NCBI RefSeq assembly: GCF_009557235.1
Contig: NZ_CP045650.1
Location: 150,001 to 182,000, forward strand
Source of the DNA: Acinetobacter wanghuae
Lineage (GTDB): Bacteria; Pseudomonadota; Gammaproteobacteria; Pseudomonadales; Moraxellaceae
DNA length: 32,000 nucleotides
Direction: 5' to 3'
The translations under genes and the position numbers were made by a program. Below the pieces are notes generated by a model. That model made no database searches. It saw only the letters and a list, made by a program, of their open reading frames with translations, and had not been told where the DNA came from. Shown piece by piece: positions 2,281-32,000 of the stretch; position 1 is the stretch's first letter, and each line of letters opens with the position of its first letter.

Positions 2281-3624
2281 ATGATTAACATGTCGCTGTG
2301 GCTCTGTTATATTTTGCCGACTCAATCTATTTCGGTGTGTCATTTGGCTACTCCATTTTGGTATAACGCTGCTTTAACGCTTATTAAACCTTTATATCAA
2401 TCACGTATCCGTAAACGTGCGGAGAGTCCTGAGCAATTACAACAAGAACTGCTCGAGCGCTTTGGTCCATTTCAAACACCTAACAATAAAAATGCCATGT
2501 GGTTTCATGTGGTTTCAGTGGGTGAAACCAATGCAGCACAACCGTTAATCGAACATTATTTAAAATTGGGTCAGCCTGTTTTAGTGACCAATACCACCAA
2601 AACTGGGCAAGCTCGTGCTAAGTCCTTATTTTTAAAAGCACCGTATTTAGATCTATTCCAAGCGGTGTATTTACCTGCCGATCAAACCGCTTTAATTCAA
2701 GATTTTTATCAAAAGTATCAGCCCAAACTATTACTGCTGATGGAAACTGAGCTCTGGCCGAATTTGATTGATCAAGCCAAAAATTTTGCTGTGCCTTGTA
2801 TTTTGCTGAATGCACGATTGTCTGAAAAATCTGCAAAAGGCTATGGCAAAGTTAAGGGCTTAACCAAAGCGATGCTGACAGGTTTAAATCAACTTTTAGC
2901 GCAAGATACGGCCACGCAACAACGTTTTATTACACTTGGTATTAACGCGCAAAAAACGCAAGTGTTAGGAAATATCAAATTTGATATTACGGCACCGCAA
3001 AGCTTCGTGGAACGTGTAGCTTCATTAAAGCAAGAATGGGACTTACAAGGCCGACAAGTCATTTTATTGGCAAGTACTCATGCACCTGAGGAAAAGGATC
3101 TCTTAGCCGCATTGAAGCCGCATTTGCAAAAGAATCCAAAGCTGTTATGTATTGTCGTACCACGCCATCCTGAACGTTTTGATGAAGTTTTCGCAGCAGC
3201 GCAAGCTTTAGACTTAGATACACAACGTCGTAGTTTAGGGCAAAGTATTCAAACTGATACGCAAGTGTATTTAGCCGATTCGATGGGTGAAATGTGGCTT
3301 TGGTATGGTTTGAGTCAGGTGTGTTATGTCGGTGGTTCTTTAAATGAACCAGGTGGTGGACATAATATATTAGAACCGATTGCGCTCAATGTGCCGACCT
3401 TATTGGGCAAAAACTATTTTAACTTCCAAACCATCGTCGATGAGTTTGTTGCAGCCAATGCGGTTGAAGTCGTGACTGATGCCGATCAAGCAGTTCAGGT
3501 CATGATGGATGTGTTAGATAACCAGTCGAAAGCACAAGGGTTGAATGCGGCTGCACAGGTGATCATGCAGAAGAATCAAGGTTCACTGCAAAAGCATATT
3601 CAGGTGATTGATCAGTATCTTTAG
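2281..3624 (+). CDS. waaA: 3-deoxy-D-manno-octulosonic acid (Kdo) transferase
   Basis: Contains WFHVVSVGETNAAQPLI, LETELWPNLI, and a C-terminal GGSL..GGHNILEP motif typical of WaaA/KdtA. Alignment by eye to the E. coli N-terminus suggests the true start may be in-frame GTG 2335 or TTG 2344 rather than ATG 2281. Confidence 0.9.
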   Translation: MINMSLWLCYILPTQSISVCHLATPFWYNAALTLIKPLYQSRIRKRAESPEQLQQELLERFGPFQTPNNKNAMWFHVVSVGETNAAQPLIEHYLKLGQPVLVTNTTKTGQARAKSLFLKAPYLDLFQAVYLPADQTALIQDFYQKYQPKLLLLMETELWPNLIDQAKNFAVPCILLNARLSEKSAKGYGKVKGLTKAMLTGLNQLLAQDTATQQRFITLGINAQKTQVLGNIKFDITAPQSFVERVASLKQEWDLQGRQVILLASTHAPEEKDLLAALKPHLQKNPKLLCIVVPRHPERFDEVFAAAQALDLDTQRRSLGQSIQTDTQVYLADSMGEMWLWYGLSQVCYVGGSLNEPGGGHNILEPIALNVPTLLGKNYFNFQTIVDEFVAANAVEVVTDADQAVQVMMDVLDNQSKAQGLNAAAQVIMQKNQGSLQKHIQVIDQYL

Positions 3625-3879
3625 CCTATATGTTTGTACCCCAATATCCATATAGATATTGGCGGAGTCATTGCATTATTAAGCAGCTTTTTGAAGCTCC
3701 TATTTTACTTTTGTTTCGGCAAAAGTAACAAAACCATTTGTCATCCACAAAACTCGTGTAATAGCGTCTTTTATTTGTTTTGATCGCAAAAACATGAGTA
3801 TGCGAATAGAGTTCTGACTCAGACAGTTGTGGATGACCTTATCACGGATTCTATCTCGGGATAAATTGAGTAAATTGCT

Positions 3880-7900: not shown

Positions 7901-9082
7901 ATGAATGCACGATCACCACATTTAAAACACACTCCGATCGAGATTGCAGAACAATTAGCGGCACAGTTTGCCGAGACTGCGGCTGCGCGCGATAAACAAG
8001 GTGGTAATCCTAAGGCGGAGCGTGATCTCATTCGTGAAAGTGGGTTACTTGGTTTATCGATTCCGACTGAATATGGTGGTCAGGGCGCAGATTGGCAAAC
8101 CATTTTCAAAACCATTCAAACCATTGCGCGCGTAGATAGCTCACTTGCGCATGTCTATGGTTTTCATCATTTACTGATTGCCACCGTGCAACTGTTTTCA
8201 GAAGCAGAGCAATACGGCAAATGGTTTGAGCAAAGCGCGAAAGAAAATTTATTTTGGGGCAATACCTTAAACCCGCTAGATAAACGCACAACCGCGACGC
8301 AAATTTCGGAAACTGAATATATTTTCCATGGGGATAAAAGCTTTTGCTCAGGCTCGATGGATTCGGATATTTTGTTGTGTTCAGGGTTCAATCAAGATGG
8401 AAAATTATTGATTGGCGTGATTCCAACACAACGTGAAGGCGTCAGTTTCTTAGGCGATTGGAACAATATGGGACAACGCCAAACTGATAGCGGTACCAGT
8501 CATTTTGAACAGGTCAAAGTACTTAAAAATGAGTTATTACTGAATCCGGGTCCTTTAAGCACACCGTATTCAAGTTTACGTCCTTTGATTGCACAGCTGA
8601 TTTTTGTCCATATGTTCTTAGGGGTTGCAGAAGGTGCATTTGATGTTGCGAAACAAACGGTACAAAGCCAAAAAGCATGGTCAAAATCCTTGGCTGAAGA
8701 GGCAGTGAATGATCCCTTTACTCAAAAGCATTTTGCGGAGTTTTATGTGCAGCTTGAAAGTGTGCGCTTATTGGCGGATAAAGCCATTCACACTTTACAA
8801 AAAGCATGGCATGTTGGTGCAGATTTAACAGCTGAGCAACGCGGTGAAGTGTCTATTGCCATTGCAACAGCTAAAATTGCATCGACGAATACATCACTCT
8901 ACATTACGCAAAATATTTTCCAAGTCATGGGCGCGCGTGCAACCACGGCTAAACTTAATTTAGATCGTTTCTGGCGTAATGTTCGTACCCAAACGCTGCA
9001 TGATCCTGTGGATTATAAATATCAAGAAATTGGTGAATGGGTGCTGACAGGCAAAGTCCCTGATCCAAGTTTCTATTCTTAA
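7901..9082 (+). CDS. Acyl-CoA-dehydrogenase-fold flavin monooxygenase, SfnB/DszC-like (sulfur acquisition oxidoreductase family)
   Basis: 393 aa with ACAD-like architecture. The N-terminal helices read ...FAETAAARDKQGG.P.AERDLIRESGLLGLSIPTEYGG.G..., and the C-terminal helical domain reads FWRNVRTQTLHDPVDYK. It lacks typical acyl-CoA dehydrogenase context and is linked to the sfnG/msuE genes 2-4 kb away. Confidence 0.65.
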   Translation: MNARSPHLKHTPIEIAEQLAAQFAETAAARDKQGGNPKAERDLIRESGLLGLSIPTEYGGQGADWQTIFKTIQTIARVDSSLAHVYGFHHLLIATVQLFSEAEQYGKWFEQSAKENLFWGNTLNPLDKRTTATQISETEYIFHGDKSFCSGSMDSDILLCSGFNQDGKLLIGVIPTQREGVSFLGDWNNMGQRQTDSGTSHFEQVKVLKNELLLNPGPLSTPYSSLRPLIAQLIFVHMFLGVAEGAFDVAKQTVQSQKAWSKSLAEEAVNDPFTQKHFAEFYVQLESVRLLADKAIHTLQKAWHVGADLTAEQRGEVSIAIATAKIASTNTSLYITQNIFQVMGARATTAKLNLDRFWRNVRTQTLHDPVDYKYQEIGEWVLTGKVPDPSFYS

Positions 9083-9091
9083 TGAAGTCAT

Positions 9092-9119
9092 AAAATGCCC
9101 TCAACTGAGGGCTTTTTTA
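9092..9119. terminator. Bidirectional terminator between the SfnB-like gene and phrB
   Basis: AAAA-TGCCCTC-aact-GAGGGC-TTTTTT between convergent genes. Confidence 0.6.
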
Positions 9120-9126
9120 TTGCAGA

Positions 9127-10551
9127 TTATTTTGAATTGGCGGTTTTAAAGGTCTCAATAGCACGAGCCCGTGAGCTTTTTAAACCCACAATCGGTTTTG
9201 GATAATTGATTTTTAAATCAGGATTTTTCGCATAAGGCTCATGAATGCTTTTGGCATCAATATGTGCCAATTCAGGCAGCCATTTTTTGATGTATTCGCC
9301 ATTGGGGTCAAAGCGCTGTGACTGACTCACCGGATTGAAAATCCGAAAATAGGGAGCGGAATCCATACCAGTCGACGCACACCATTGCCAGCCGCCATTA
9401 TTCGCTGCTAAATCACCATCAATCAGATGTTGCATAAACCATGCTTCGCCGAGTCGCCAATCGATGAGTAAGTTCTTGGTCAGGAACATCGCTGTAATCA
9501 TACGCACGCGGTTGTGCATCCAACCTGTAGCCAGCAGTTGACGCATGCCTGCATCGACAATTGGAATGCCCGTCTGTCCTTGTTGCCAAGCTGCTAAGTC
9601 CTTAGGGGCATCGCGCCACTGAATATGCTTGGTGTTGTCCTTAAAAGGCTGATGTTTGGAGACTTTGGGGAAATCATGCAAGGTATGTTGATAAAACTCA
9701 CGCCATAATAATTCATCGAGCCACGTTTGTTGTCCAATATCATCGATTTGGAAGTAGCCATTGTGCTGCTCAAACAGAGCCTGAATACATTGGCGAATCG
9801 ATATCGCCCCTATGTTTAAATAGGGCGACATTTGGCTCGTACCATCTAGACTCGGAATATCTCGTTCAGCTTTGTAATATTCGAGCTGATCTTCAATAAA
9901 ATGTTGCAGTCGCTGTTGAATATCTGCATCTTCAACCGACCATATTTTTTGTAAGTTTTGAGATTGATAGCGCTTCGCAAAGGCATCAAGGTCAAATTCA
10001 AATGTCGAGATATCCAAATCAAGTGGAGCTTGTGCTTCAAGCTCAGGATACATCGAAGGCACATCCACAATTAAGCGTTCATAACACTTTTTCTTAAAAG
10101 CGCTAAAGACTTGATAAGGTTGATGACTGCCATTTCGAATACTGCCCAATGGAAAAAGCGTACGGTCTTCATAGCGTTCAAACGCAATTTCGTGCGCAGT
10201 TAAGGTTTCACTTACCGCTTGATCACGCTGTTGTTCATGAATCCCTATTTCAATATTGGCATGGACATGACGAACGTTGAATTGCTCACAAAGTGCCAAG
10301 AGGCGTTGTAGAATATCCTGCCACAATGCCTGTTCAAGAATGACGAGCGGAATATTCAACTGTTCAAGTTGGGCTTTAAGCAGGTTTAAACGTCTAAGAT
10401 AAAAATCAATTTTAACTGCTGCATCTTGATGAAGTCGCCATTGTTCAGGCGATAGAATGACGACAGCGAGACACTGTTGAGATTGGGCTGCATGCCATAG
10501 CGCAGTATGGTCATAAATACGCAGATCATTACGAAACCAAATCAGATGCAT
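9127..10551 (-). CDS. phrB: Deoxyribodipyrimidine photolyase (CPD photolyase)
   Basis: Contains HLIWFRNDLRIYDH, TSQMSPYLNIGAISIRQ, WLDELLWREFY, TGIPIVDAGMRQL..TGWMHNRVRMI and DGDLAANNGGWQW. The ORF track begins at TTG 10569. ATG 10551 (MHLIWFRNDLR) matches the usual photolyase N-terminus. Confidence 0.92.
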   Translation of the reverse strand: MHLIWFRNDLRIYDHTALWHAAQSQQCLAVVILSPEQWRLHQDAAVKIDFYLRRLNLLKAQLEQLNIPLVILEQALWQDILQRLLALCEQFNVRHVHANIEIGIHEQQRDQAVSETLTAHEIAFERYEDRTLFPLGSIRNGSHQPYQVFSAFKKKCYERLIVDVPSMYPELEAQAPLDLDISTFEFDLDAFAKRYQSQNLQKIWSVEDADIQQRLQHFIEDQLEYYKAERDIPSLDGTSQMSPYLNIGAISIRQCIQALFEQHNGYFQIDDIGQQTWLDELLWREFYQHTLHDFPKVSKHQPFKDNTKHIQWRDAPKDLAAWQQGQTGIPIVDAGMRQLLATGWMHNRVRMITAMFLTKNLLIDWRLGEAWFMQHLIDGDLAANNGGWQWCASTGMDSAPYFRIFNPVSQSQRFDPNGEYIKKWLPELAHIDAKSIHEPYAKNPDLKINYPKPIVGLKSSRARAIETFKTANSK

Positions 10552-25345: not shown

Positions 25346-25373
25346 ATTGTATTGTAACAATTTATGTTGTCAA
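25346..25373 (-). promoter_or_regulatory. Sigma70-type promoter for the porin gene
   Basis: On the minus strand, TTGACA (25373-25368), a 16-nt spacer, then TACAAT (25351-25346). The predicted TSS is about 36 nt upstream of ATG 25303. Confidence 0.5.
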
Positions 25374-25709
25374 TGGATGCAATTATGTTCTTTTCTTAAA
25401 CATTTTTGTCATATATTTTTTGTGTATTATTCTAGCAATGCCTTTTATTTTTCTTTCTTTTTTTTAAAAAATTGAAAATTAACAATATGTTGTATGTTCT
25501 ATGCTGTTGTTCAGAATAAATTTTAAGATGAAATTTGTTATCTTTCTTGCATATTACTTGAGCGGTTATTTACGAAAAAATGAATGCAATAGCAAATAAA
25601 TTTCATATTAAACAATTAGATAATTGGGTATTTAATTTTGATTAATAATTATTCAAGTGTTTGTTTAATTAATGATCAGTTGATTTATATTCATCCAAAA
25701 GATGTCTTT

Positions 25710-25731
25710 AACTGTGATTTTTGTCACATTT
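25710..25731. promoter_or_regulatory. CRP/Vfr-type binding site AACTGTGATTTTTGTCACATTT
   Basis: Perfect TGTGA-N6-TCACA core (25713-25717 / 25724-25728) with an AA / TTT flank. By my count it matches the E. coli CRP consensus AAATGTGATCTAGATCACATTT at 17 of 22 positions. Confidence 0.5.
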
Positions 25732-25764
25732 AATTTTAATAGTGTGATGTGGTATAAAACCAAG

Positions 25765-25910
25765 TGTTTTAATCGGCTTTACTTTTTAGGTGATCTTTAC
25801 CATAATTTCAATATCAACTTAGACATCACATATAGATTTCTAACTTGTACAAATCTCCACGATTTTGTTTTTATCAGCCCAACTTTCCCCAAGGTTGGGC
25901 TTTTTTTTAT
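25765..25910 (+). ncRNA. Candidate small RNA of about 145 nt (orphan promoter plus terminator)
   Basis: An extended -10 TGgTATAAA lies at 25750-25758, downstream of the CRP-like site. No ATG occurs between about 25765 and 25875. The candidate ends at a strong intrinsic terminator (25876-25910). No plus-strand gene lies upstream. Confidence 0.3.
25876..25910 (+). terminator. Strong plus-strand-only intrinsic terminator with no gene upstream
   Basis: AGCCCAACTTT-cccc-AAGGTTGGGCT (11 bp including one G-U pair) followed by 8 T. The reverse complement lacks a U tract. Confidence 0.7.
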
Positions 25911-26042
25911 TCAAAAAAAGACCCTAAATCATCTAAATGTTTACATGAGTTTAATTAAAGAACTAAACCTAAATTGAAAAATAAATCGCACCAAAATGAT
26001 GCATTAATTTTAAGGGGCTTCATCATTGTTTTTCATTCGGAT

Positions 26043-26081
26043 AAAAAAAATCCCAGTCTTCATAGAAAACTGGGATTTTTT
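26043..26081. terminator. Second orphan intrinsic terminator (bidirectional shape)
   Basis: AAAAAAAA-TCCCAGT-(11 nt)-ACTGGGA-TTTTTT. No annotated gene ends here on either strand. Confidence 0.65.
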
Positions 26082-26248
26082 CGCCAAAATTTGCGGGAAA
26101 ACTAAAATATCTGCTGAGGAATAAAGTAGCTCGCCCTAATGCGGTGCATTATGCACTTAATTGTTGCATGTGTAAATAGTCTGAAAATACTGTTTTATTC
26201 TTTTTTTAGCTTATTTTTTGGATTCTTTTATTATTTTCTAATAAGGCA
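26043..26248 (-). ncRNA. Candidate minus-strand non-coding transcript of about 200 nt
   Basis: On the minus strand, a consensus TTGACA lies at 26284-26279. It is followed after 17 nt by TTTATA, or after 19 nt by TATAAG, giving a predicted TSS near 26248. The transcript would run into the 26043-26081 terminator. The longest ATG ORF on that strand is 15 codons. Confidence 0.2.
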
Positions 26249-26437
26249 TTATGCTTATAAATTGAATCCGCGGTTCTTTGTCAAAATCAAAAAATATAAG
26301 TGACTGTTAAATTAAATAAATTTTTTAAAAAATATCTCTAAATGGTGAAACAGGACTTTATAGTTCAAGGGTGTTGTTTGTATAATGACCACTTCAATAT
26401 GAATATTCGTTTGAATAATCGAGGGCGTAAATAAAAC

Positions 26438-28147
26438 ATGCATTCATTACGCTCTGAACATATGAGTAAGCGCCTGTATTGGGCGATGTCGATTATTATC
26501 TTATGTTTGCTTTTAATCTGTATTCCTTTAATTGTCTCAAGTAGTCAAAAATTTCAGCACTCTGTTAAAACGTATAATGAAATTAAGGTGCTTGAGCATG
26601 TCGCAGACTTAGCCAATAAAATCTCTCGCGAACGCGCACCTGCCAATAAAATCATGTCTAGTTCCATTGAGGACTTTGAAAAACATCGTAAAGAATTAGC
26701 CGATTATCGACGTGGTGTCGATCAGCAACTCGAGCAGACACAGCTAATTCTAAAAAATGCTGGTTTTAATACGCTGAGTGCACAAATTTCTCATACGCTT
26801 ATCCCAACTTTAGCGCATGCGCGTCAAGACGTTGACGTGTATGCGGCACTGCCACGTACCGAGCGAAGTGCTGAGAAATTAGATCAATCCATTTTGTCTA
26901 TGTTTGAGGCGTGGCAGAGTAGTCGTCAGGTATTAAAAGGTGTGGTCATTGAGTCTGAAATACCGTCCACAAAACTCTCTAATTTTGTCTCGCAAATTTT
27001 ATTGTTATCGGATTTACGTGACCAAGCAGGGCGTGTTGCCTCAAATGTAATGGCGCATGTGACATTTGGCACAGTTCTGCCTGAAACAAATTTAACGCGC
27101 TCATTACAAACCCAACATCAGGTACTGTATTTATGGGATTTGATTGAAACCATTCAACCGATCCAAGATAAAACCCCTGAATTTATTCAACTGCACGATG
27201 AAATTAAGACGCAATTTATTGATCAAGGTTTACCTTTAGTATCAGGCTTAATTGAGGATAGTCTACAGCATCGTCCATATCGCTTAACGGGCACTCAGCT
27301 TACCGAAGCAATGGTGGATAAATTTGCCACAGTTATCGATTTACAGACGTATTTACTTGAATATAGTCATGATCTTGCCTATCAAGACGTACAGAAAAAT
27401 TTAAAAGATTTACTGTGGACTGTCATTATTTCGCTTATTTCTTTAACCATGGCGATTGTGACCATGTTTTCTGCACGACGCAGTTTGTTCTTACCCTTAA
27501 TTACAGCACGTGAAATGTTATTTGACTTGTCTGAGTCGACTGATCGAAATAAATCCGTAAATCCGCAAGGGGTGAGAGAAAATCCAGACAGTTTATTTGC
27601 AGCGATTCAAAAATTAGAGCATTCCTTACAACAACGTGATGCTTTGGAATTTCGTCTTAAAAATATCGCGCATTCGGATTCATTGACGGGGTTATCAAAC
27701 CGTTTTGCATTAGAAGAATATATTCGCTTTTTGGAAGGGCATCCTTCGAAGTTATCCAAAACCTGTTTAATGATGATTGATATTGATCACTTTAAACAAG
27801 TGAATGATCAGCATGGGCATATCATTGGCGATCATGTCATTCAATCTGTAGCCGATTGTTTGAAAAGCAACGTGCGTACCTCGGACATGATTGTGCGTTA
27901 TGGTGGAGATGAGTTCCTGATACTCATTGAAAATATTGATATGAACAATGCACTAACCATTGCGCATAAAATTCGTAAAGAGGTGAAGGCTGAAACGATT
28001 TTAGATGCAGATGGACAGCATATTCCGTTTTCAGTCAGTATTGGTGTTGCCATTGGTGCAGAGTCTTGGGTGCGTTTGTTTGAAGCTGCCGATGAAGGAT
28101 TGTTTAAGGCGAAGGCAAAAGGGCGGAATGCAGTCGCCGAGGGATAA
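26438..28147 (+). CDS. Membrane-anchored diguanylate cyclase (GGDEF) with a periplasmic sensor domain of about 290 aa
   Basis: 569 aa. One TM helix lies near residues 14-34 and another near 326-346. The C-terminal GGDEF domain reads DSLTGLSNR...IDIDHFKQVNDQHGH..GD...RTSDMIVRYGGDEFLIL, with the RxxD I-site 5 residues before GGDEF. TATAAT lies at 26381-26386. An alternative start is ATG 26462. Confidence 0.9.
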   Translation: MHSLRSEHMSKRLYWAMSIIILCLLLICIPLIVSSSQKFQHSVKTYNEIKVLEHVADLANKISRERAPANKIMSSSIEDFEKHRKELADYRRGVDQQLEQTQLILKNAGFNTLSAQISHTLIPTLAHARQDVDVYAALPRTERSAEKLDQSILSMFEAWQSSRQVLKGVVIESEIPSTKLSNFVSQILLLSDLRDQAGRVASNVMAHVTFGTVLPETNLTRSLQTQHQVLYLWDLIETIQPIQDKTPEFIQLHDEIKTQFIDQGLPLVSGLIEDSLQHRPYRLTGTQLTEAMVDKFATVIDLQTYLLEYSHDLAYQDVQKNLKDLLWTVIISLISLTMAIVTMFSARRSLFLPLITAREMLFDLSESTDRNKSVNPQGVRENPDSLFAAIQKLEHSLQQRDALEFRLKNIAHSDSLTGLSNRFALEEYIRFLEGHPSKLSKTCLMMIDIDHFKQVNDQHGHIIGDHVIQSVADCLKSNVRTSDMIVRYGGDEFLILIENIDMNNALTIAHKIRKEVKAETILDADGQHIPFSVSIGVAIGAESWVRLFEAADEGLFKAKAKGRNAVAEG

Positions 28148-28316
28148 TTGTTTTCAGTATTTAAAATATCTTTCTTATCATTTTGGAAAAATTAGTACTT
28201 TTAGCTGAAAAGAATTTGTCTAAGGGATAATTGTTTTCAGTATTTAAAATATCTTTCTTATCATTTTGGAAAAATTAGTACTTTTAGCTGAAAAGAATTT
28301 GTCTAAGGGATAATTG
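28140..28316. repeat. Perfect 83-bp tandem duplication (2.1 copies)
   Basis: Positions 28141-28223 are identical base for base to 28224-28306. An 11-bp boundary AGGGATAATTG occurs at 28140, 28223 and 28306. Copy 1 starts in the last codons of the cyclase gene. The last copy supplies the last 10 codons and the stop of the 420-aa ORF. Confidence 0.95.
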
Positions 28317-29546
28317 TAGGATATACCAACTTCCATTTGGCTCATCTCTAAGCTCAGGATAACCATTCTCTGTATTTGCATAATTTAAGCTTATGCTAAT
28401 ATTTGAAGATTGTTTAATATCGTCTTTAACATATTCGAGATAGCTAGAGATATTTGTACATGAAGGTGTTTGATCTTCGGATGAATCAATTCTGAAATTT
28501 AATAGCTTAATTTTCTGATAATCACTTTTAATTTCAGGAATAGCTTTTCCTTTATGCTTGCCAATATTGTGTAAAAGTATAGGAAACATTTTACCCCACT
28601 GTTGTTCTTTCCAAGCATTTAAAAAGATAAGTAAAGTGTGTTCAGGTAAGCCTTGCTCTATAGTTATTAGATTTTGACTTTGCCAATACTTTTCAGATTT
28701 GATGGGGCGTTTTTTCCATAAACTTATGCGCTTAGAGAGTTCTTGAGTCTTATTATATTTTTCTAAGGATTCTTTTATAGAAATCGATTCTATAGGTTGT
28801 TTATCGATTCTTTTTTCATCAGACCAATCAATTACACAGTCCAGCAACCACCAACATTTCGAAGCAACTTCTTTATTAGAAAAATTTAAATCACGACCAT
28901 GTAAAATTCCATTGCGATACGGAATTAAAATTTCTTCTTCTGTTGTTTTTTTCCTTGATGTGTTCATGATTAATTTCAGAAAAGGTAATCCTGTTTCATG
29001 CGATGTAATGCTGTCATAGAGTTCTAGGTCTGATTTTTCAGTAAAGAAGCCAACATGTTTTGAAATGTCGTTGACTAAGCCATCTATTAGCGCCAGTAAT
29101 AAAGGAATACATGAATGATAACGTTGTTCTAAATAATCTATTTTTAATAACTTAAGTAAGTCTAAGCGAGTCTTAAATTCAGGGCGAGAACTACATTTTG
29201 TAAGAATGAATTCAACCATTTTTTCATCAACATATTCTATGAGTAATTCTTTTGCTTCCTCATATTTATTCGTTGAACCTAAAGCCACTGATTGTTCTAA
29301 AACAGTCTGACTTAATCCACTGTAACAAATCCATCCATCTTTTGAGAAAAGCTCATTAAATTTATCAGGTAACGTTAAAATATGACTATCTTTTATCATC
29401 TGCATAACTTGATTGCGATGTTCTTTTAATTTTGGATTAATCGTATATATGAAAGGGATCTTTTCAAGAAAAGTATATCCTGTTTGTAATAATTGGCTAA
29501 AAGTTAAAAGTGGTCTAATTGACTCATTATCTGTAATTTTTGGCAT
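28284..29546 (-). CDS. Hypothetical 420-aa protein, AT-rich, with an R-N-x3-H-G motif (possible HEPN-domain RNase)
   Basis: Uninterrupted ORF with GGAG 5 nt before the ATG. Sampled lines have about 22-32% G+C. Residues 209-217 read PYRNGILHG (DNA 28896-28922), following predicted helices at about 125-200. No TM segment, no signal peptide, and no family recognisable by eye. Confidence 0.75.
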   Translation of the reverse strand: MPKITDNESIRPLLTFSQLLQTGYTFLEKIPFIYTINPKLKEHRNQVMQMIKDSHILTLPDKFNELFSKDGWICYSGLSQTVLEQSVALGSTNKYEEAKELLIEYVDEKMVEFILTKCSSRPEFKTRLDLLKLLKIDYLEQRYHSCIPLLLALIDGLVNDISKHVGFFTEKSDLELYDSITSHETGLPFLKLIMNTSRKKTTEEEILIPYRNGILHGRDLNFSNKEVASKCWWLLDCVIDWSDEKRIDKQPIESISIKESLEKYNKTQELSKRISLWKKRPIKSEKYWQSQNLITIEQGLPEHTLLIFLNAWKEQQWGKMFPILLHNIGKHKGKAIPEIKSDYQKIKLLNFRIDSSEDQTPSCTNISSYLEYVKDDIKQSSNISISLNYANTENGYPELRDEPNGSWYILQLSLRQILFS

Positions 29547-29555
29547 TTACTCTCC

Positions 29556-29587
29556 AAATAAAAAACGGTGAATGAATCACCGTTTTA
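29556..29587 (-). terminator. Rho-independent terminator downstream of uvrA, abutting the SD of the 420-aa ORF
   Basis: On the minus strand, ACGGTGA-ttcat-TCACCGT is followed by TTTTTATTT. GGAG-agtaa-ATG of the next ORF follows immediately. Confidence 0.6.
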
Positions 29588-29610
29588 GCATACTTATAAA
29601 GTGAATTAAA

Positions 29611-29677
29611 TCCTCCCTAACCCTCCTTTGATAAAGGAGGAAATTTCCCCTCTTTTATAAAGAGGGGTTAGGGGAGA
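29611..29677. repeat. REP-like composite palindrome (two inverted hairpin units of about 30 bp)
   Basis: Unit 1 is TCCTCCCTAA-CCTCCTTT-gat-AAAGGAGG-AAA. Unit 2, on the opposite strand, is CTCCCCTAA-CCCCTCTTT-ata-AAAGAGGGG-AAA. The local hairpins are at 29622-29640 and 29647-29667. The element starts 4 nt from the uvrA stop. Confidence 0.6.
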
Positions 29678-29680
29678 TTG

Positions 29681-32000
29681 TTATTTCAACAAAGGCTTCA
29701 AGAACTTCGCTGTATGTGAAACTTTCGATTTCGCCACATCTTCAGGTGTGCCTTCCGCAATAATCATACCGCCACCAGCACCACCTTCAGGACCTAAATC
29801 AATCACCCAATCGGCAGTCTTAATCACATCCAAGTTATGCTCAATCACGACAATGGTATTACCCTTGTTACGAAGCTCATGCAAAATATCAAGCAACTTG
29901 GCAATGTCATGGAAATGCAAACCTGTGGTCGGTTCATCCAAGACATAAATAGTTTTACCCGTATCGCGTTTAGCAAGTTCGCGTGCTAATTTGACACGTT
30001 GTGCTTCACCACCTGACAGTGTTGTTGCAGATTGACCGAGACGGATATAACCCAAACCAACTTGCATCAAGGTATCTAAACGACGGTGAATGACAGGAAT
30101 GGCATCGAAGAACTGAGTGGCATCTTCAACAGTCATTTCTAAAACATCAGAAATGTTCTTGCCTTTGTAATTCACTTCTAAGGTTTCACGGTTGTAACGT
30201 TTGCCATGACAGGCATCGCAAGGTACATACATATCGGGTAAGAAATGCATCGCGACTTTAATCATGCCATCGCCTTCGCAGGCTTCACAACGACCGCCTT
30301 TCACGTTAAATGAGAAACGACCTGCGGTATAACCACGACCTTTGGCTTCAGGTGTTTGTGAAAATAACTCGCGAATTGGAGTAAATAAACCCGTATATGT
30401 CGCAGGGTTTGAACGTGGTGTACGTCCAATTGGGCTTTGGTCAATATCGACAACTTTATCGAGATACTGTAAACCATCAATCGAATCGAACTTCTCTGCG
30501 GTAAGTGTGGTTGCACCATTCAACTGGGTTGCTGCCAAAGGCAATAAAGTACGGTTAATCAAGGTTGATTTACCTGAACCCGAAACCCCAGTAACACACG
30601 TCATAATGCCAAGTGGAATGGTTAAATCGACATTTTGTAAGTTATGCCCACACGCACCTAACAGCTTAATTTGTTCTTCAGGTTTAGGTGGTTTTACTCG
30701 TGTTTTCGGGACTTCAATTTTACGCTTACCTGTCAGGTATTGACCGGTCAGTGATTTTTCATTGGCAATGATTTCATCATACGTCCCTTCCGCAATGACA
30801 TAACCCCCATGCACACCTGCACCCGGACCAATATCAATAATATGGTCAGCCGCACGAATTGCATCTTCATCATGCTCAACGACAAGCACGGTATTGCCTA
30901 AGTCACGTAAGCGTACAAGCGTTTCAAGCAAGCGATCGTTATCACGTTGATGTAAACCAATCGATGGTTCATCCAGTACGTACATCACGCCCATTAAGCC
31001 CGCACCAATTTGCGAAGCCAAACGAATACGCTGTGCTTCACCGCCCGACAAGGTTTCCGCAGAACGCGATAAACTTAAATAATTCAAACCAACCGACACA
31101 AGGAAATGCAGACGTTCACGAATCTCTTTAAAGATTTTATCTGCGATTTCACCGCGTGCACCTTCAAGGTTGAGACCTTGATAATAGCTTTCGGCATCGC
31201 CAATCGACATTTTGGTAATTTGTGCGATGGTTTTGTCTAAAATTTTCACATTACGTGAGATTTCATTCAGACGTGAGCCATCGCAGGCATCACATGCCGC
31301 ATTCGATAAATACTGTGCAAGATCATCACGCACATAATTACTTTCAGTTTCACGGTAACGACGTTCTAAATGTGGCAACACACCTTCAAAAGCAATTACA
31401 CGATTATGACGACGACCGCGTTCATCGATATAACTTAAATCAATTTTTTCTTTACCTGTACCGTATAAAAATTTCTTTTTCACATCGGCATCAAGTTCGT
31501 TCCACGGGGTATCCAGTGAATAACCAAAATGTTCGGCAACTTTTTGGATCATACTGTAATAGTACGGGCGTTGACGATCCCAACCACGAATAGCGCCTTG
31601 GCTAATAGAAAACTCAGGACTTGGAATCAGTTTGTCTGCACTAAAGTGACTACGTGTACCTAAACCATCACAGACAGGGCATGCGCCAAATGGATTGTTA
31701 AATGAGAATAGACGGGGTTCAAGTTCACCCACCGCACGTTCACATTCAGGACATGAGTGTTTTGCAGAGAACACACGGTCGGGCTGTTCGTCATTCATCC
31801 ATGACAAAATGGCAATATCACTACCTAAACGTAGCGCTGTTTCAAAACTTTCAGCAATACGGTTACCAAGATCATCACGGACTTTAAAACGGTCAACCAC
31901 AACTTCAATGCTGTGTTTTTTCTTTTTATCGAGTTCAGGCGGTGGATCAATTTCCATGATTTCGCCATCAACACGGGCACGAACAAAACCTTGGCTTTGT
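29681..32000 (-). CDS. uvrA: Excinuclease ABC subunit A (N-terminal ~170 aa beyond the window edge)
   Basis: The frame is open to position 32000. The ATG at 31957 is internal: ...[37 protein letters not shown] matches mid-UvrA. Features include two ABC modules ([18 protein letters not shown] twice, YVLDEPS/YVLDEPT) and zinc-finger cysteines (CPECE..CPVCDG; [14 protein letters not shown]). Confidence 0.97.

What the first reader, a model, noticed from the sequence alone, without database searches (positions are those of the whole stretch)
28284..29546. Orphan AT-rich 420-aa ORF with a HEPN-type R-N-x3-H-G motif between a core cyclase gene and uvrA: candidate single-gene defence / abortive-infection module
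Seen in the sequence: the ORF is intact and has a good SD, but its composition stands out. Hand counts of three 60-nt lines inside it give 13, 18 and 19 G+C (about 22-32%). Sampled lines give 30/60 in uvrA and 19-33/60 in the cyclase gene. The protein is rich in K, I, L, N and E, and I recognise no family for it, unlike nearly every other gene in the window. Residues 205-240 read EEILIPYRNGILHGRDLNFSNKEVASKCWWLLDCVIDW, with R211-N212-x3-H216-G217 at the start of a predicted helix. That helix is preceded by predicted helices at about 125-200 (RLDLLKLLKIDYLEQRYHSCIPLLLALIDGLVNDI ... LELYDSITSHETGLPFLKLIM). Established knowledge: the Rx4-6H motif, often R-N-x-x-x-H-G, at the start of the last helix of a four-helix bundle is the catalytic signature of HEPN RNases. 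These occur in Abi proteins, RnlA/LsoA, Cas13, Csm6/Csx1 and HEPN-MNT toxins. Inference: the protein could be a HEPN effector fused to uncharacterised N-terminal (~120 aa) and C-terminal (~170 aa, helix-then-strand pattern) domains that might sense infection. No MNT-like or other small partner ORF lies on either side, and no integrase or transposase is present. That pattern fits a minimal island of about 1.4 kb dropped between two housekeeping genes.
Basis: partly seen in the sequence, partly recalled or inferred. Interest (0 to 1): 0.75.

Follow-up and report, generated by a model that had tools for sequence, protein, structure and literature searches.

The report
Candidate single-gene HEPN-like defence module
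This AT-rich 420-aa gene belongs to a large uncharacterised family (a helical domain with an invariant R-N-x3-H-G motif fused to an NTF2-like domain) that sits in a swappable slot between uvrA and a cyclase gene in Acinetobacter, travels as an integron cassette elsewhere, and is most likely a self-contained RNase-type anti-phage or toxin module, though this is unproven.

Summary
An intact 420-aa ORF lies at 28284-29546 on the minus strand, with GC 0.31 against 0.42 for its neighbours. Its R211-N212-x3-H216-G217 motif is invariant.

It is not an orphan. There are 786 clusters at 50% identity, in many bacterial phyla and some archaea, and no curated library (Pfam, NCBIfam, PADLOC, PHROGs, PDB) matches it.

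An AlphaFold model (pLDDT 88-90) shows a 290-residue helical domain plus a C-terminal NTF2-like domain. The HEPN reading is only partly supported:
- No Pfam HEPN family and no solved structure matches.
- The helical domain matches a phage protein labelled DUF4209 (Foldseek E 7.6e-6). DUF4209 is the C6orf70-type HEPN family.
- At 20% identity the conserved polar residues shrink to D/E155, R211, N/H212, H216 and K230.

The "dropped island" idea needs revising. The gene occupies the same uvrA-GGDEF junction in six Acinetobacter lineages and has diverged along with its hosts. The junction is nevertheless a hotspot: it is empty in some strains and holds a PADLOC defence candidate (PDC-S49) in a near-identical relative. 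Elsewhere the gene is a single VCR-flanked integron cassette, is prophage-borne, or sits beside Gabija, PARIS, SoFic or R-M genes, with no conserved partner.

Best reading: a single-gene sensor-effector defence or abortive-infection module. Confidence is about 0.5.

The parts
28284..29546 (-). 420-aa ORF, a member of an uncharacterised family of about 420-430 aa. The A. baylyi ADP1 orthologue is ACIAD3456.
   Evidence: GC is 0.309 against 0.423 for other window genes.
28677..29546 (-). N-terminal all-helical domain (residues 1-290). It resembles a DUF4209-labelled phage protein and is the candidate HEPN-type catalytic domain.
   Evidence: AF2 domain model has pLDDT 90.5 and pTM 0.82. Foldseek against BFVD hits A0A8S5MX66 at E 7.6e-6, TM 0.51/0.55. 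Foldseek against PDB finds nothing.
28896..28916 (-). Codons for R211-N212-G213-I214-L215-H216-G217, an Rx4H motif with a polar residue after the R.
   Evidence: Invariant in 91 sequences. R, G, H and G are kept at 20% identity and across subfamilies. In the model it forms a one-turn helix (211-215) before the long helix 225-247.
29082..29084 (-). Codon for D155, within I-D-G on helix 143-161. It is a conserved acidic residue and a candidate equivalent of the HEPN helix-2 acidic residue.
   Evidence: Invariant, D or E in distant homologues, and the IDG motif is shared across subfamilies. Its proximity to the motif in space was not verified.
28284..28649 (-). C-terminal NTF2-like domain (residues about 300-420, three helices then a curved sheet), plus the stop codon. 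It is the candidate sensor or ligand-binding domain.
   Evidence: Foldseek against PDB hits 2i9w, YchJ (9vxg), the PBP2a/PBP3 N-terminal domains, and ketosteroid isomerase/LEH, with probability up to 1.0 and E 8e-3 to 0.3. Weak MecA_N Pfam hits appear.
29550..29555 (-). Shine-Dalgarno sequence GGAGAG, 3 nt upstream of the ATG.
   Evidence: Read directly from the sequence.
29562..29586 (-). Intrinsic-terminator hairpin with a T-run, 16 nt upstream of the ATG. It is probably the uvrA terminator, so the ORF has no recognisable promoter of its own.
   Evidence: One search finds the terminator and no sigma-70-like site between uvrA and the ORF. A 31-bp match (93.5%) to the empty A. schindleri junction covers it.
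29609..29679 (-). Long imperfect palindrome immediately after the uvrA stop codon. It occurs once in the window.
   Evidence: The 146-nt stretch spanning it and the terminator folds at -52.3 kcal/mol, z = -6.6. It is single-copy, and an inverted 36-bp match exists in L081.
28155..29684 (.). Variable interval of the GGDEF-uvrA hotspot. This is everything that differs from the near-conspecific genome L093, which carries a PDC-S49-like cargo instead.
   Evidence: Homology to L093 covers 27901-28154 (94%) and 29685-29899 (97.7%) and nothing in between. L093 cargo is described.
28140..28317 (.). Perfect 83-bp tandem duplication (2.1 copies). It spans the GGDEF stop codon, the spacer and the last 11 codons of the ORF, and is bounded by the 12-mer AGGGATAATTGT.
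   Evidence: TRF reports 100% matches. The 12-mer is absent from the orthologous loci checked, and the spacer is about 50-53 bp in L081 and L086.
26438..28147 (+). Flanking core gene: a GGDEF diguanylate cyclase of 569 aa, convergent with the ORF.
   Evidence: with Pfam GGDEF on its orthologues.
29681..32000 (-). Flanking core gene: uvrA (3' part, running off the window end), co-directional with and upstream of the ORF.
   Evidence: with UvrA Pfam domains on its orthologues.

Best explanation
The ORF encodes a self-contained accessory sensor-effector protein that sits in a variable defence-type slot between uvrA and a GGDEF gene.

Proposed mechanism (inferred): the N-terminal helical domain is a divergent HEPN-type, DUF4209/C6orf70-like, metal-independent RNase. 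Its active site would be R211, N212 and H216, helped by D155 and K230, and is probably completed by dimerisation as in other HEPN enzymes. The C-terminal NTF2-like domain would act as the regulatory or sensing module, binding a small ligand or a phage protein and holding the nuclease off until infection. Activation would then cleave cellular RNA and abort the infection.

Shown here: the family, its architecture, the invariance of the motif, the gene's mobility, the hotspot, and the defence-rich neighbourhoods.

Inferred only: RNase activity, the sensing role of the NTF2-like domain, and the anti-phage phenotype.
For: Motif and active-site pattern:
- P-Y-R-N-G-I-L-H-G is invariant in 91 homologues.
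- At 20-23% identity, and in a second subfamily (hhalign E 8e-57), the conserved polar residues reduce to D/E155, R211, N/H212, H216 and K230.
- This matches the HEPN definition of R-polar-x3-H plus an acidic residue on the preceding helix, with an insert before the motif (PMC3710099).

Fold evidence:
- The confident helical-domain model (pLDDT 90.5) matches a phage 'DUF4209 domain-containing protein' over its whole length (E 7.6e-6, probability 1.0).
- UniProt labels an Acinetobacter orthologue DUF4209.
- DUF4209 is the C6orf70 HEPN family.
- The C-terminal domain is NTF2-like.

No partner: none is conserved across 76 non-Acinetobacter loci.

Hotspot: the same junction is empty in A. schindleri and in one A. 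pseudolwoffii genome. It carries PDC-S49-like KAP NTPases (E about 1e-23) in sp. NCu2D-2 and in a genome whose UvrA C-terminal region is 100% identical and whose GGDEF is 96% identical to the window's.

Contexts elsewhere:
- A single VCR-flanked cassette in the V. cholerae integron.
- Next to a type I R-M gene and a PIN gene on an Acidovorax plasmid.
- Immediate neighbours include GajA, AriA, SoFic, MADS genes, a type III REase and integrases.
- Four viral contigs with portal and terminase genes.

Composition: the gene is more AT-rich than its flanks in 77 of 84 loci.
Against: - No Pfam HEPN-clan family, NCBIfam, PADLOC or PHROG model matches any member, the family consensus or distant relatives.
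- Foldseek finds no solved HEPN structure, and a PDB profile search finds nothing relevant.
- In the model, 'helix 3' is only a single turn.
- No coordinates were available, so I could not check that D155 and K230 lie near R211 and H216.
- Defence association was scored without a matched background control.
- The gene has been stably inherited at one site in several Acinetobacter species, and a terminator lies just upstream, so its expression is uncertain.
- No phenotype data exist: ACIAD3456 appears in no paper in the searched library.
Confidence: 0.5

Rival explanations
1. It is a selfish toxin or addiction-type cassette, or a stress-response RNase, with no role against phages. An autoinhibited nuclease would stabilise the integron arrays, plasmids or hotspot it sits in, or would respond to stress.
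For: It is a single cassette among ParE/Phd and HigB/HTH cassettes in the V. cholerae integron and in a similar array in L089. It lies next to MazE-like, PIN and MqsA-like genes. It occurs on plasmids. The motif evidence is the same as for the main explanation.
Against: No antitoxin-like partner is conserved. The alternative cargo at the Acinetobacter site is a phage-defence candidate. Several neighbours are bona fide defence genes. The boundary between TA systems and abortive-infection systems is itself blurred.
Confidence: 0.17
2. It is not an RNA-cleaving toxin. The helical domain uses the R/H site for another reaction or for binding, for example degrading or binding a nucleotide signal as some HEPN-type ring nucleases do. 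With the NTF2-like pocket it would then act as a regulator, an anti-defence factor or a small-molecule enzyme.
For: No HEPN profile or solved HEPN structure matches. NTF2-like folds are typically ligand pockets or enzymes such as ketosteroid isomerase and limonene epoxide hydrolase. Within the main subfamily there are extra conserved residues, including H144, H164 and H183. Some members are prophage-borne.
Against: The extra histidines are not conserved in distant homologues. The residues that survive fit the HEPN catalytic pattern. The DUF4209 resemblance points the same way.
Confidence: 0.18
3. It is an Acinetobacter housekeeping or DNA-damage-response gene functionally tied to uvrA. It is co-directional with uvrA, immediately downstream of it, and probably transcribed by read-through.
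For: It lies downstream of uvrA on the same strand in all 8 Acinetobacter loci. No promoter of its own was detected, and only the uvrA terminator precedes it. Its divergence tracks that of the host.
Against: It was found in only 3 Acinetobacter species representatives in the genome scan, against roughly 120 named species. The site is empty or differently occupied in close relatives. Outside Acinetobacter it is never linked to uvrA. Its composition is strongly atypical and has not drifted towards the host's.
Confidence: 0.04

Closest known systems
DUF4209 / C6orf70 (ERMARD)-type HEPN family (Pfam PF13910; Anantharaman et al. 2013, PMC3710099)
   Same: Both have the R-N-x3-H-G type motif. One UniProt orthologue is labelled DUF4209. 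The best structural match of the helical domain is a DUF4209-labelled phage protein. The bacterial members of that family are described as occurring near R-M operons, as does the Acidovorax homologue.
   Different: The local Pfam PF13910 model does not hit any member. The described fusions are to TPR or WD40 repeats, not to an NTF2-like domain. The eukaryotic members carry a transmembrane segment.
Single-protein HEPN abortive-infection systems: DARNA/PD-T7-3, ApeA, AbiD/AbiF
   Same: Each is one polypeptide combining an Rx4H HEPN nuclease with a non-catalytic regulatory domain. They have no partner gene and are found in defence islands. DARNA is activated by a phage cue and cleaves tRNA (bioRxiv 10.64898/2026.02.22.705581).
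   Different: They share no detectable sequence relationship with this protein: PADLOC models for these systems do not hit it. In DARNA the HEPN domain is N-terminal (residues 1-159) and the C-terminal domain is Pds5-like and helical. Here the motif lies at residues 211-217 of a 290-residue helical domain, and the C-terminal domain is NTF2-like.
HEPN-MNT (HepT/MntA) and RnlA/RnlB toxin-antitoxin systems
   Same: They share the putative Rx4H RNase chemistry and occur among TA genes and mobile elements.
   Different: No MNT, RnlB or other partner is conserved next to the gene, and there is no profile match.
NTF2-like domains of YchJ/SEC-C-motif proteins and the PBP2a (MecA_N) N-terminal domain
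   Same: The C-terminal roughly 120 residues adopt this cone-shaped alpha+beta fold.
   Different: Sequence identity is only 5-19% and Foldseek E-values are borderline. No fusion of this fold to a HEPN-like domain was found in the literature searched.
Core-gene-flanked defence hotspots (as described for Pseudomonas and E. coli) and integron cassettes that encode defence systems
   Same: Alternative cargos, or nothing, sit between the same two conserved genes, and the breakpoints fall at the stop codons of those genes. The V. cholerae homologue is a VCR-bounded cassette.
   Different: I found no description of this particular uvrA-GGDEF slot in Acinetobacter. No recombinase or attachment site is present in the window.

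Membership tests
HEPN superfamily | Conserved Rx4-6H motif with a polar residue (N, D or H) immediately after the R | tested here: met
   R211-N212-x3-H216 is invariant in 91 sequences. It reads R-[N/H]-G-x-x-H-G in homologues at 20-23% identity and in a second subfamily. The definition comes from PMC3710099.
HEPN superfamily | Conserved acidic residue on helix 2, spatially close to the motif | tested here: inconclusive
   D/E155 (and D160 within the main subfamily) is conserved on helix 143-161. No model coordinates were available, so its proximity to R211 and H216 could not be checked.
HEPN superfamily | [quoted passage not shown] | tested here: inconclusive
HEPN superfamily | Profile match to a curated HEPN-clan family | tested here: not met
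   hmmscan against Pfam found nothing for the window protein, 30 members, 10 divergent members, the family consensus or 5 distant homologues. HHpred-type profile-profile searching against Pfam was not possible.
HEPN superfamily | Metal-independent endoribonuclease activity that depends on the R and H residues | not testable with these tools
   This needs biochemistry.
DUF4209 (PF13910, C6orf70-type HEPN) | Pfam model hit at or above the gathering score | tested here: not met
   No hit was found even at E <= 10. Precomputed Pfam annotations are empty for all listed homologues of the ORF.
DUF4209 (PF13910, C6orf70-type HEPN) | Fold similarity to a protein carrying the DUF4209 label | tested here: met
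   Foldseek against BFVD hits A0A8S5MX66 at E 7.6e-6, probability 1.00, TM 0.51/0.55 and 22% identity over 276 columns. UniProt gives the same label to orthologue P0007.
Known anti-phage defence systems (PADLOC-DB v2.0.0) | Match to a defence-system protein model | tested here: not met
   There were 0 families at E <= 10.
Candidate defence gene (guilt by association) | Recurrent location next to known defence genes, in variable hotspots and on mobile elements | tested here: met
   The alternative cargo at the same junction is PDC-S49-like. Among 140 immediate neighbours there are GajA, AriA, SoFic x4, MADS genes, a type III REase and several PDC families. Other contexts include a type I R-M gene, an integron cassette and prophage contigs. 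No matched background control was run.
Candidate defence gene (guilt by association) | Protection against phage when the gene is expressed | not testable with these tools
   This needs plaque assays. No publication mentions ACIAD3456.
HEPN-MNT / two-gene toxin-antitoxin systems | A conserved adjacent antitoxin gene | tested here: not met
   No partner is present in the window. No conserved neighbour cluster exists across 76 loci.
NTF2-like superfamily (C-terminal domain) | Alpha+beta cone fold: three helices followed by a curved antiparallel sheet | tested here: met
   The secondary structure is H301-313, H317-323, H332-343, E346-360, E363-374, E377-391, E405-409. Foldseek against PDB hits 2i9w, 9vxg, PBP2a/PBP3 and KSI/LEH with probability up to 1.0 and E 8e-3 to 0.3.
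Integron gene cassette (applies to the V. cholerae homologue, not the window copy) | A single ORF bounded by attC (VCR) sites within an array | tested here: met
   In L091 the gene (2382-3671) lies between repeats of about 130 nt at 2232-2363 and 3669-3800. These carry the TAACAAACG...GCCCCTTAGGCGGGCGTTA ends and recur at every cassette boundary.

The most novel reading that the evidence does not exclude
The family would be a previously unrecognised, widely distributed single-protein immune sensor-effector (at least 786 clusters at 50% identity, in many bacterial phyla, some archaea, prophages, plasmids and integrons). An NTF2-like pocket would sense an infection cue and release a DUF4209-type HEPN RNase. 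As a prokaryotic relative of the eukaryotic ERMARD/C6orf70 domain it could also serve as a tractable model for that unstudied branch. The uvrA-GGDEF junction would be a new defence hotspot in Acinetobacter.
Probability: 0.3. Interest if true: 0.7.

Novelty: new variant of a known kind. Interest (0 to 1): 0.55.

Why it matters
If the reading is right, this adds a new architecture (a DUF4209/HEPN-like nuclease fused to an NTF2-like sensor) to the set of single-gene abortive-infection systems. No current defence-finder model would detect it.

It would also identify a core-gene-flanked defence slot in Acinetobacter, a genus where phage therapy is being actively pursued.

The hypothesis is immediately testable. 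An orthologue, ACIAD3456, exists in the naturally transformable model strain A. baylyi ADP1, and nature has already provided empty-site and alternative-cargo strains for comparison.

If the reading is wrong, the family is still a large, conserved, mobile protein family with an invariant putative active site and no known function.

Tried and rejected
**Searches that found nothing**
- Pfam, NCBIfam, PADLOC and PHROGs with the window protein, 30 members, 10 divergent members, the family consensus and 5 distant homologues.
- PDB by sequence, with the single protein and with a profile. Only chance-level oligoribonuclease and YppE matches appeared in the linker region.
- Foldseek against PDB with the helical domain alone.
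- The phage genome collection by tblastn.
- The literature for ACIAD3456, for a HEPN+NTF2 architecture, and for an Acinetobacter uvrA hotspot.
- Rfam on the whole window.

**Tools and data not available**
- The supplement of the 2013 HEPN survey, which I hoped would supply reference alignments for hhalign, is not held in usable form.

**Leads that did not pay off**
- The last protein search, on the Acidovorax homologue, was meant to find Pfam-annotated intermediates. It returned a second unannotated subfamily instead.
- Short 'helical-domain-only' relatives turned out to be truncated fragments.

**Ideas rejected**
- A multi-histidine metal site: H144, H164 and H183 are not conserved in distant homologues.
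- Identity with DARNA/PD-T7-3: the architecture is different and there is no PADLOC hit.
- A recent insertion: the gene is syntenic and has co-diverged across the genus.
- A conserved partner gene.
Full report
**1. The observation**

The ORF is real. It runs 28284-29546 on the minus strand and encodes 420 aa from an ATG. A GGAGAG Shine-Dalgarno sequence lies 3 nt upstream.

Its composition stands out. GC is 0.309 and GC3 is 0.230, against 0.423 +/- 0.018 and 0.354 +/- 0.043 for the other 20 long ORFs in the window (profile). The protein is enriched in K, I, L and E and depleted in A, G and V. The quoted peptide and its numbering (R211, N212, H216, G217) are correct.

No partner ORF, integrase or transposase flanks the gene. 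Its neighbours are a GGDEF cyclase (26438-28147, +) and uvrA (from 29681, -).

**2. It is not an orphan, but it is uncharacterised**

The word-indexed search found 400 homologues. The exhaustive phmmer search found 786 cluster representatives at 50% identity with E <= 1e-3, of which 275 have E <= 1e-30. Nearly all are full-length proteins of 415-440 aa.

A scan of one genome per species found the gene in 227 of 185,579 species. These include Gammaproteobacteria, Betaproteobacteria, Bacteroidota, Firmicutes, Cyanobacteria, Planctomycetota and two archaeal MAGs. Only three of them are Acinetobacter species representatives, although roughly 120 Acinetobacter species are named.

Every source calls these proteins 'hypothetical', with one exception: a UniProt entry for an Acinetobacter orthologue is named 'DUF4209 domain-containing protein'. 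The A. baylyi ADP1 orthologue is ACIAD3456, and no paper in the searched library mentions it.

Pfam, NCBIfam, PADLOC, PHROGs and PDB sequence searches return nothing significant for the window protein, 30 members, divergent members, the family consensus or distant homologues.

**3. Architecture**

An AlphaFold2 model built on 91 sequences is confident (pLDDT 87.6). It shows an all-helical N-terminal region (residues 1-290), a linker helix, and a C-terminal alpha+beta domain (about residues 300-420).

Foldseek against PDB matches only the C-terminal domain. The hits are NTF2-like folds: the SEC-C-motif protein 2i9w, YchJ (9vxg), the N-terminal domains of PBP2a and PBP3, and ketosteroid isomerase and limonene epoxide hydrolase. 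Probabilities reach 1.0, with E between 8e-3 and 0.3. Weak MecA_N Pfam hits in several members agree with this.

The helical domain modelled on its own is even more confident (pLDDT 90.5, pTM 0.82).

**4. Is the helical domain a HEPN domain?**

*Evidence for:*
- P209, R211, G213, I214, H216 and G217 are invariant in 91 sequences, and N212 is nearly so.
- Adding five actinobacterial and betaproteobacterial plasmid homologues at 20-23% identity cuts the conserved polar positions to D/E155, R211, N/H212, H216 and K230. H144, H164 and H183 are lost.
- A second subfamily of about 100 clusters aligns over 405 columns by hhalign (probability 100%, E 8e-57). It keeps I-D-G, G-L, P-[YF]-R-[NH]-G-I-[LV]-H-G and V-A-A-K.
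- The reference survey defines HEPN by an Rx4-6H motif with a polar residue (N, D or H) after the R, a conserved acidic residue on helix 2, frequent inserts between helices 2 and 3, and the motif at the end of helix 3 (PMC3710099). The model can be read that way: H128-139, H143-161 carrying D155, an insert at 162-210, the motif turn at 211-215, then H225-247.
- Foldseek against BFVD gives one clearly significant match, a Siphoviridae protein annotated 'DUF4209 domain-containing'. The values are E 7.6e-6, probability 1.00, TM 0.51/0.55 and 22% identity over the whole 269-residue target. A second phage protein matches at TM 0.47/0.61.
- DUF4209 is the C6orf70-type HEPN family in the survey.

*Evidence against:*
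- No Pfam HEPN family, DUF4209 included, hits any member.
- Foldseek against PDB with the helical domain gives nothing (best E 1.7).
- The rmsd of the BFVD hit is high.
- I had no coordinates, so I could not verify that the conserved residues cluster in space.

My judgement is that a HEPN-type (DUF4209-like) active site is the best-supported reading, but it is not established.

**5. The junction is an old but variable slot, not a fresh insertion**

All eight Acinetobacter loci that carry the gene have it in the same place and orientation: uvrA, then the gene, then a convergent GGDEF gene. They include A. pseudolwoffii, a lineage labelled A. entericus by one source, A. baylyi (including strain ADP1), sp. 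ANC 4805 and A. vivianii.

Pairwise protein identities for the gene (55-79%) lie between those of GGDEF (43-72%) and UvrA (89-98.5%). They rank the pairs in broadly the same order, which indicates long co-divergence with the hosts.

Yet the site is polymorphic:
- A. schindleri has only 146 bp between the two core genes.
- A complete A. pseudolwoffii genome has about 390 bp and no such gene, while another strain of that species carries it.
- Acinetobacter sp. NCu2D-2 carries an unrelated 585-aa gene.
- A metagenome-assembled genome whose UvrA C-terminal 758 residues are 100% identical and whose GGDEF is 96% identical to the window's carries a 371-aa plus 155-aa pair instead.

Homology between the window and that genome stops at the two stop codons, leaving 28155-29684 as the swapped interval. 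The alternative cargos match the PADLOC phage-defence candidate PDC-S49, a KAP-family NTPase, at E about 1e-23, and PifA weakly.

The gene stays near 0.30-0.33 GC even where its flanking genes reach 0.46-0.52. Across 84 loci it is more AT-rich than its surroundings in 77.

**6. Contexts outside Acinetobacter**

No neighbour is conserved across 76 loci, so the gene functions as a single-gene unit.

- **Integron.** In V. cholerae the gene is one cassette, bracketed by VCR-type attC repeats that recur at every gene boundary, among ParE/Phd, glyoxalase and DUF2971 cassettes.
- **Other chromosomal and plasmid sites.** Other members lie by HigB/HTH, PIN, RVT_1, IS21 and MazE-like genes. The Acidovorax plasmid copy lies beside a type I restriction R subunit and a PIN protein.
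- **Pooled neighbours.** Among the 140 immediately adjacent genes, strong PADLOC hits include SoFic (4), GajA (1e-225), AriA (2), MADS components (2), a type III restriction enzyme and several PDC families. Pfam hits include phage integrases (4), Fic (4), Schlafen/AlbA_2 and AAA_21. No matched background was run, so this is qualitative.
- **Viral contigs.** Four IMG/VR contigs carry full-length relatives next to portal, terminase, integrase, Mu-transposase, TIR and methylase genes. The GenBank phage collection has none.

**7. Expression signals**

A 10-bp-stem intrinsic terminator (29586-29562, -) ends 16 nt before the ATG. The scan finds no sigma-70-like promoter between uvrA and the ORF.

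A 31-bp match (93.5%) to the empty A. schindleri junction covers this hairpin, so it is probably the ancestral uvrA terminator.

Expression is therefore likely to be low, coming from read-through or from a promoter the scan does not recognise. That would suit a potentially toxic protein, but this is inference.

**8. Mechanism proposed**

*Shown:* the two-domain architecture, the invariant R-N-x3-H-G motif plus D/E155 and K230, the single-gene mobility, and the residence in a hotspot.

*Inferred:* the helical domain is a HEPN-type metal-independent RNase, probably active as a dimer as other HEPN enzymes are. The NTF2-like domain is the sensor or regulator. Activation on infection leads to RNA cleavage and abortive infection.

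The nearest functional analogues are single-protein HEPN systems such as DARNA/PD-T7-3, ApeA and AbiD/AbiF. These are unrelated in sequence and have different architectures.

**9. Rivals**

- A selfish toxin or stabilisation cassette, or a stress RNase with no role against phages (about 0.17).
- A non-nuclease function of the R/H site together with the NTF2-like pocket, such as signal degradation, a regulator or an anti-defence factor (about 0.18).
- A uvrA-linked housekeeping role (about 0.04). The patchy distribution and the empty sites contradict this.

**10. Verdict**

The family is a new, unannotated variant of a known kind (single-gene HEPN-like candidate defence module), and a tractable orthologue exists in A. 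baylyi ADP1. Interest is 0.55.

Noticed in passing
window 28140-28317: A perfect 83-bp tandem duplication (2.1 copies, 100% identity) spans the GGDEF stop codon, the convergent-gene spacer and the last 11 codons of the ORF. It is bounded by three copies of AGGGATAATTGT, which suggests a recent slippage or unequal exchange between two 12-bp repeats. It lengthens the spacer from about 53 bp (as in L081 and L086) to 136 bp and leaves a second, orphaned copy of the ORF's 3' end.
   Followed up: partly
window 29609-29679 (minus strand): A long imperfect palindrome (CCCCTAACCCCTCTTTATAAAAGAGGGG...CCTCCTTTATCAAAGGAGGGTTAGGGAGG) lies directly after the uvrA stop codon. The 146-nt stretch spanning it and the terminator folds far better than shuffled sequence (z = -6.6). 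It occurs once in the window, and an inverted 36-bp match exists in the A. pseudolwoffii locus L081. Its function is unknown; it could be REP-like or part of a bidirectional terminator.
   Followed up: partly
L093 7767-9367; L095 7771-9528: The same uvrA-GGDEF junction in other Acinetobacter genomes carries KAP-family NTPase genes that match PADLOC candidate PDC-S49 (E about 1e-23). In L093 the gene appears as 371-aa and 155-aa ORFs, against a single 585-aa ORF in L095, so the L093 copy may be split or frameshifted.
   Followed up: partly
window 25361-26437: A roughly 1.1-kb very AT-rich stretch (GC 0.21-0.30) with no convincing ORF lies between the porin-like gene and the GGDEF gene. A gap of similar size is present at the same place in all related Acinetobacter loci. 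There is no Rfam match. It may be a long regulatory region for the cyclase.
   Followed up: no
L089 (ENA contig, 8001-9290 and flanks): This family member sits in a run of short same-strand genes (HigB/HTH, methyltransferase, PIN, FMN_bind_2, glyoxalase, DUF2971) that looks like another chromosomal integron array, followed by an RVT_1 reverse transcriptase. I did not check it for attC sites.
   Followed up: no
P0121 and P0125 (648 and 645 aa): Two family representatives carry an extra N-terminal region of about 220-270 residues with no Pfam match, and each matches the query in two stretches. They may be a longer architectural variant or a fusion with a second, partial copy.
   Followed up: no
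L004, L009, L088 (downstream of the family gene): Three unrelated genomes (Thiothrix, Thiolinea and a wastewater MAG) share the same convergent downstream block: a radical-SAM protein with an HMPTM zinc ribbon, a small protein, and an LGT-like protein. The radical-SAM protein gives weak pVip-like PADLOC hits. This probably reflects local synteny among related hosts and not a functional partnership.
   Followed up: no
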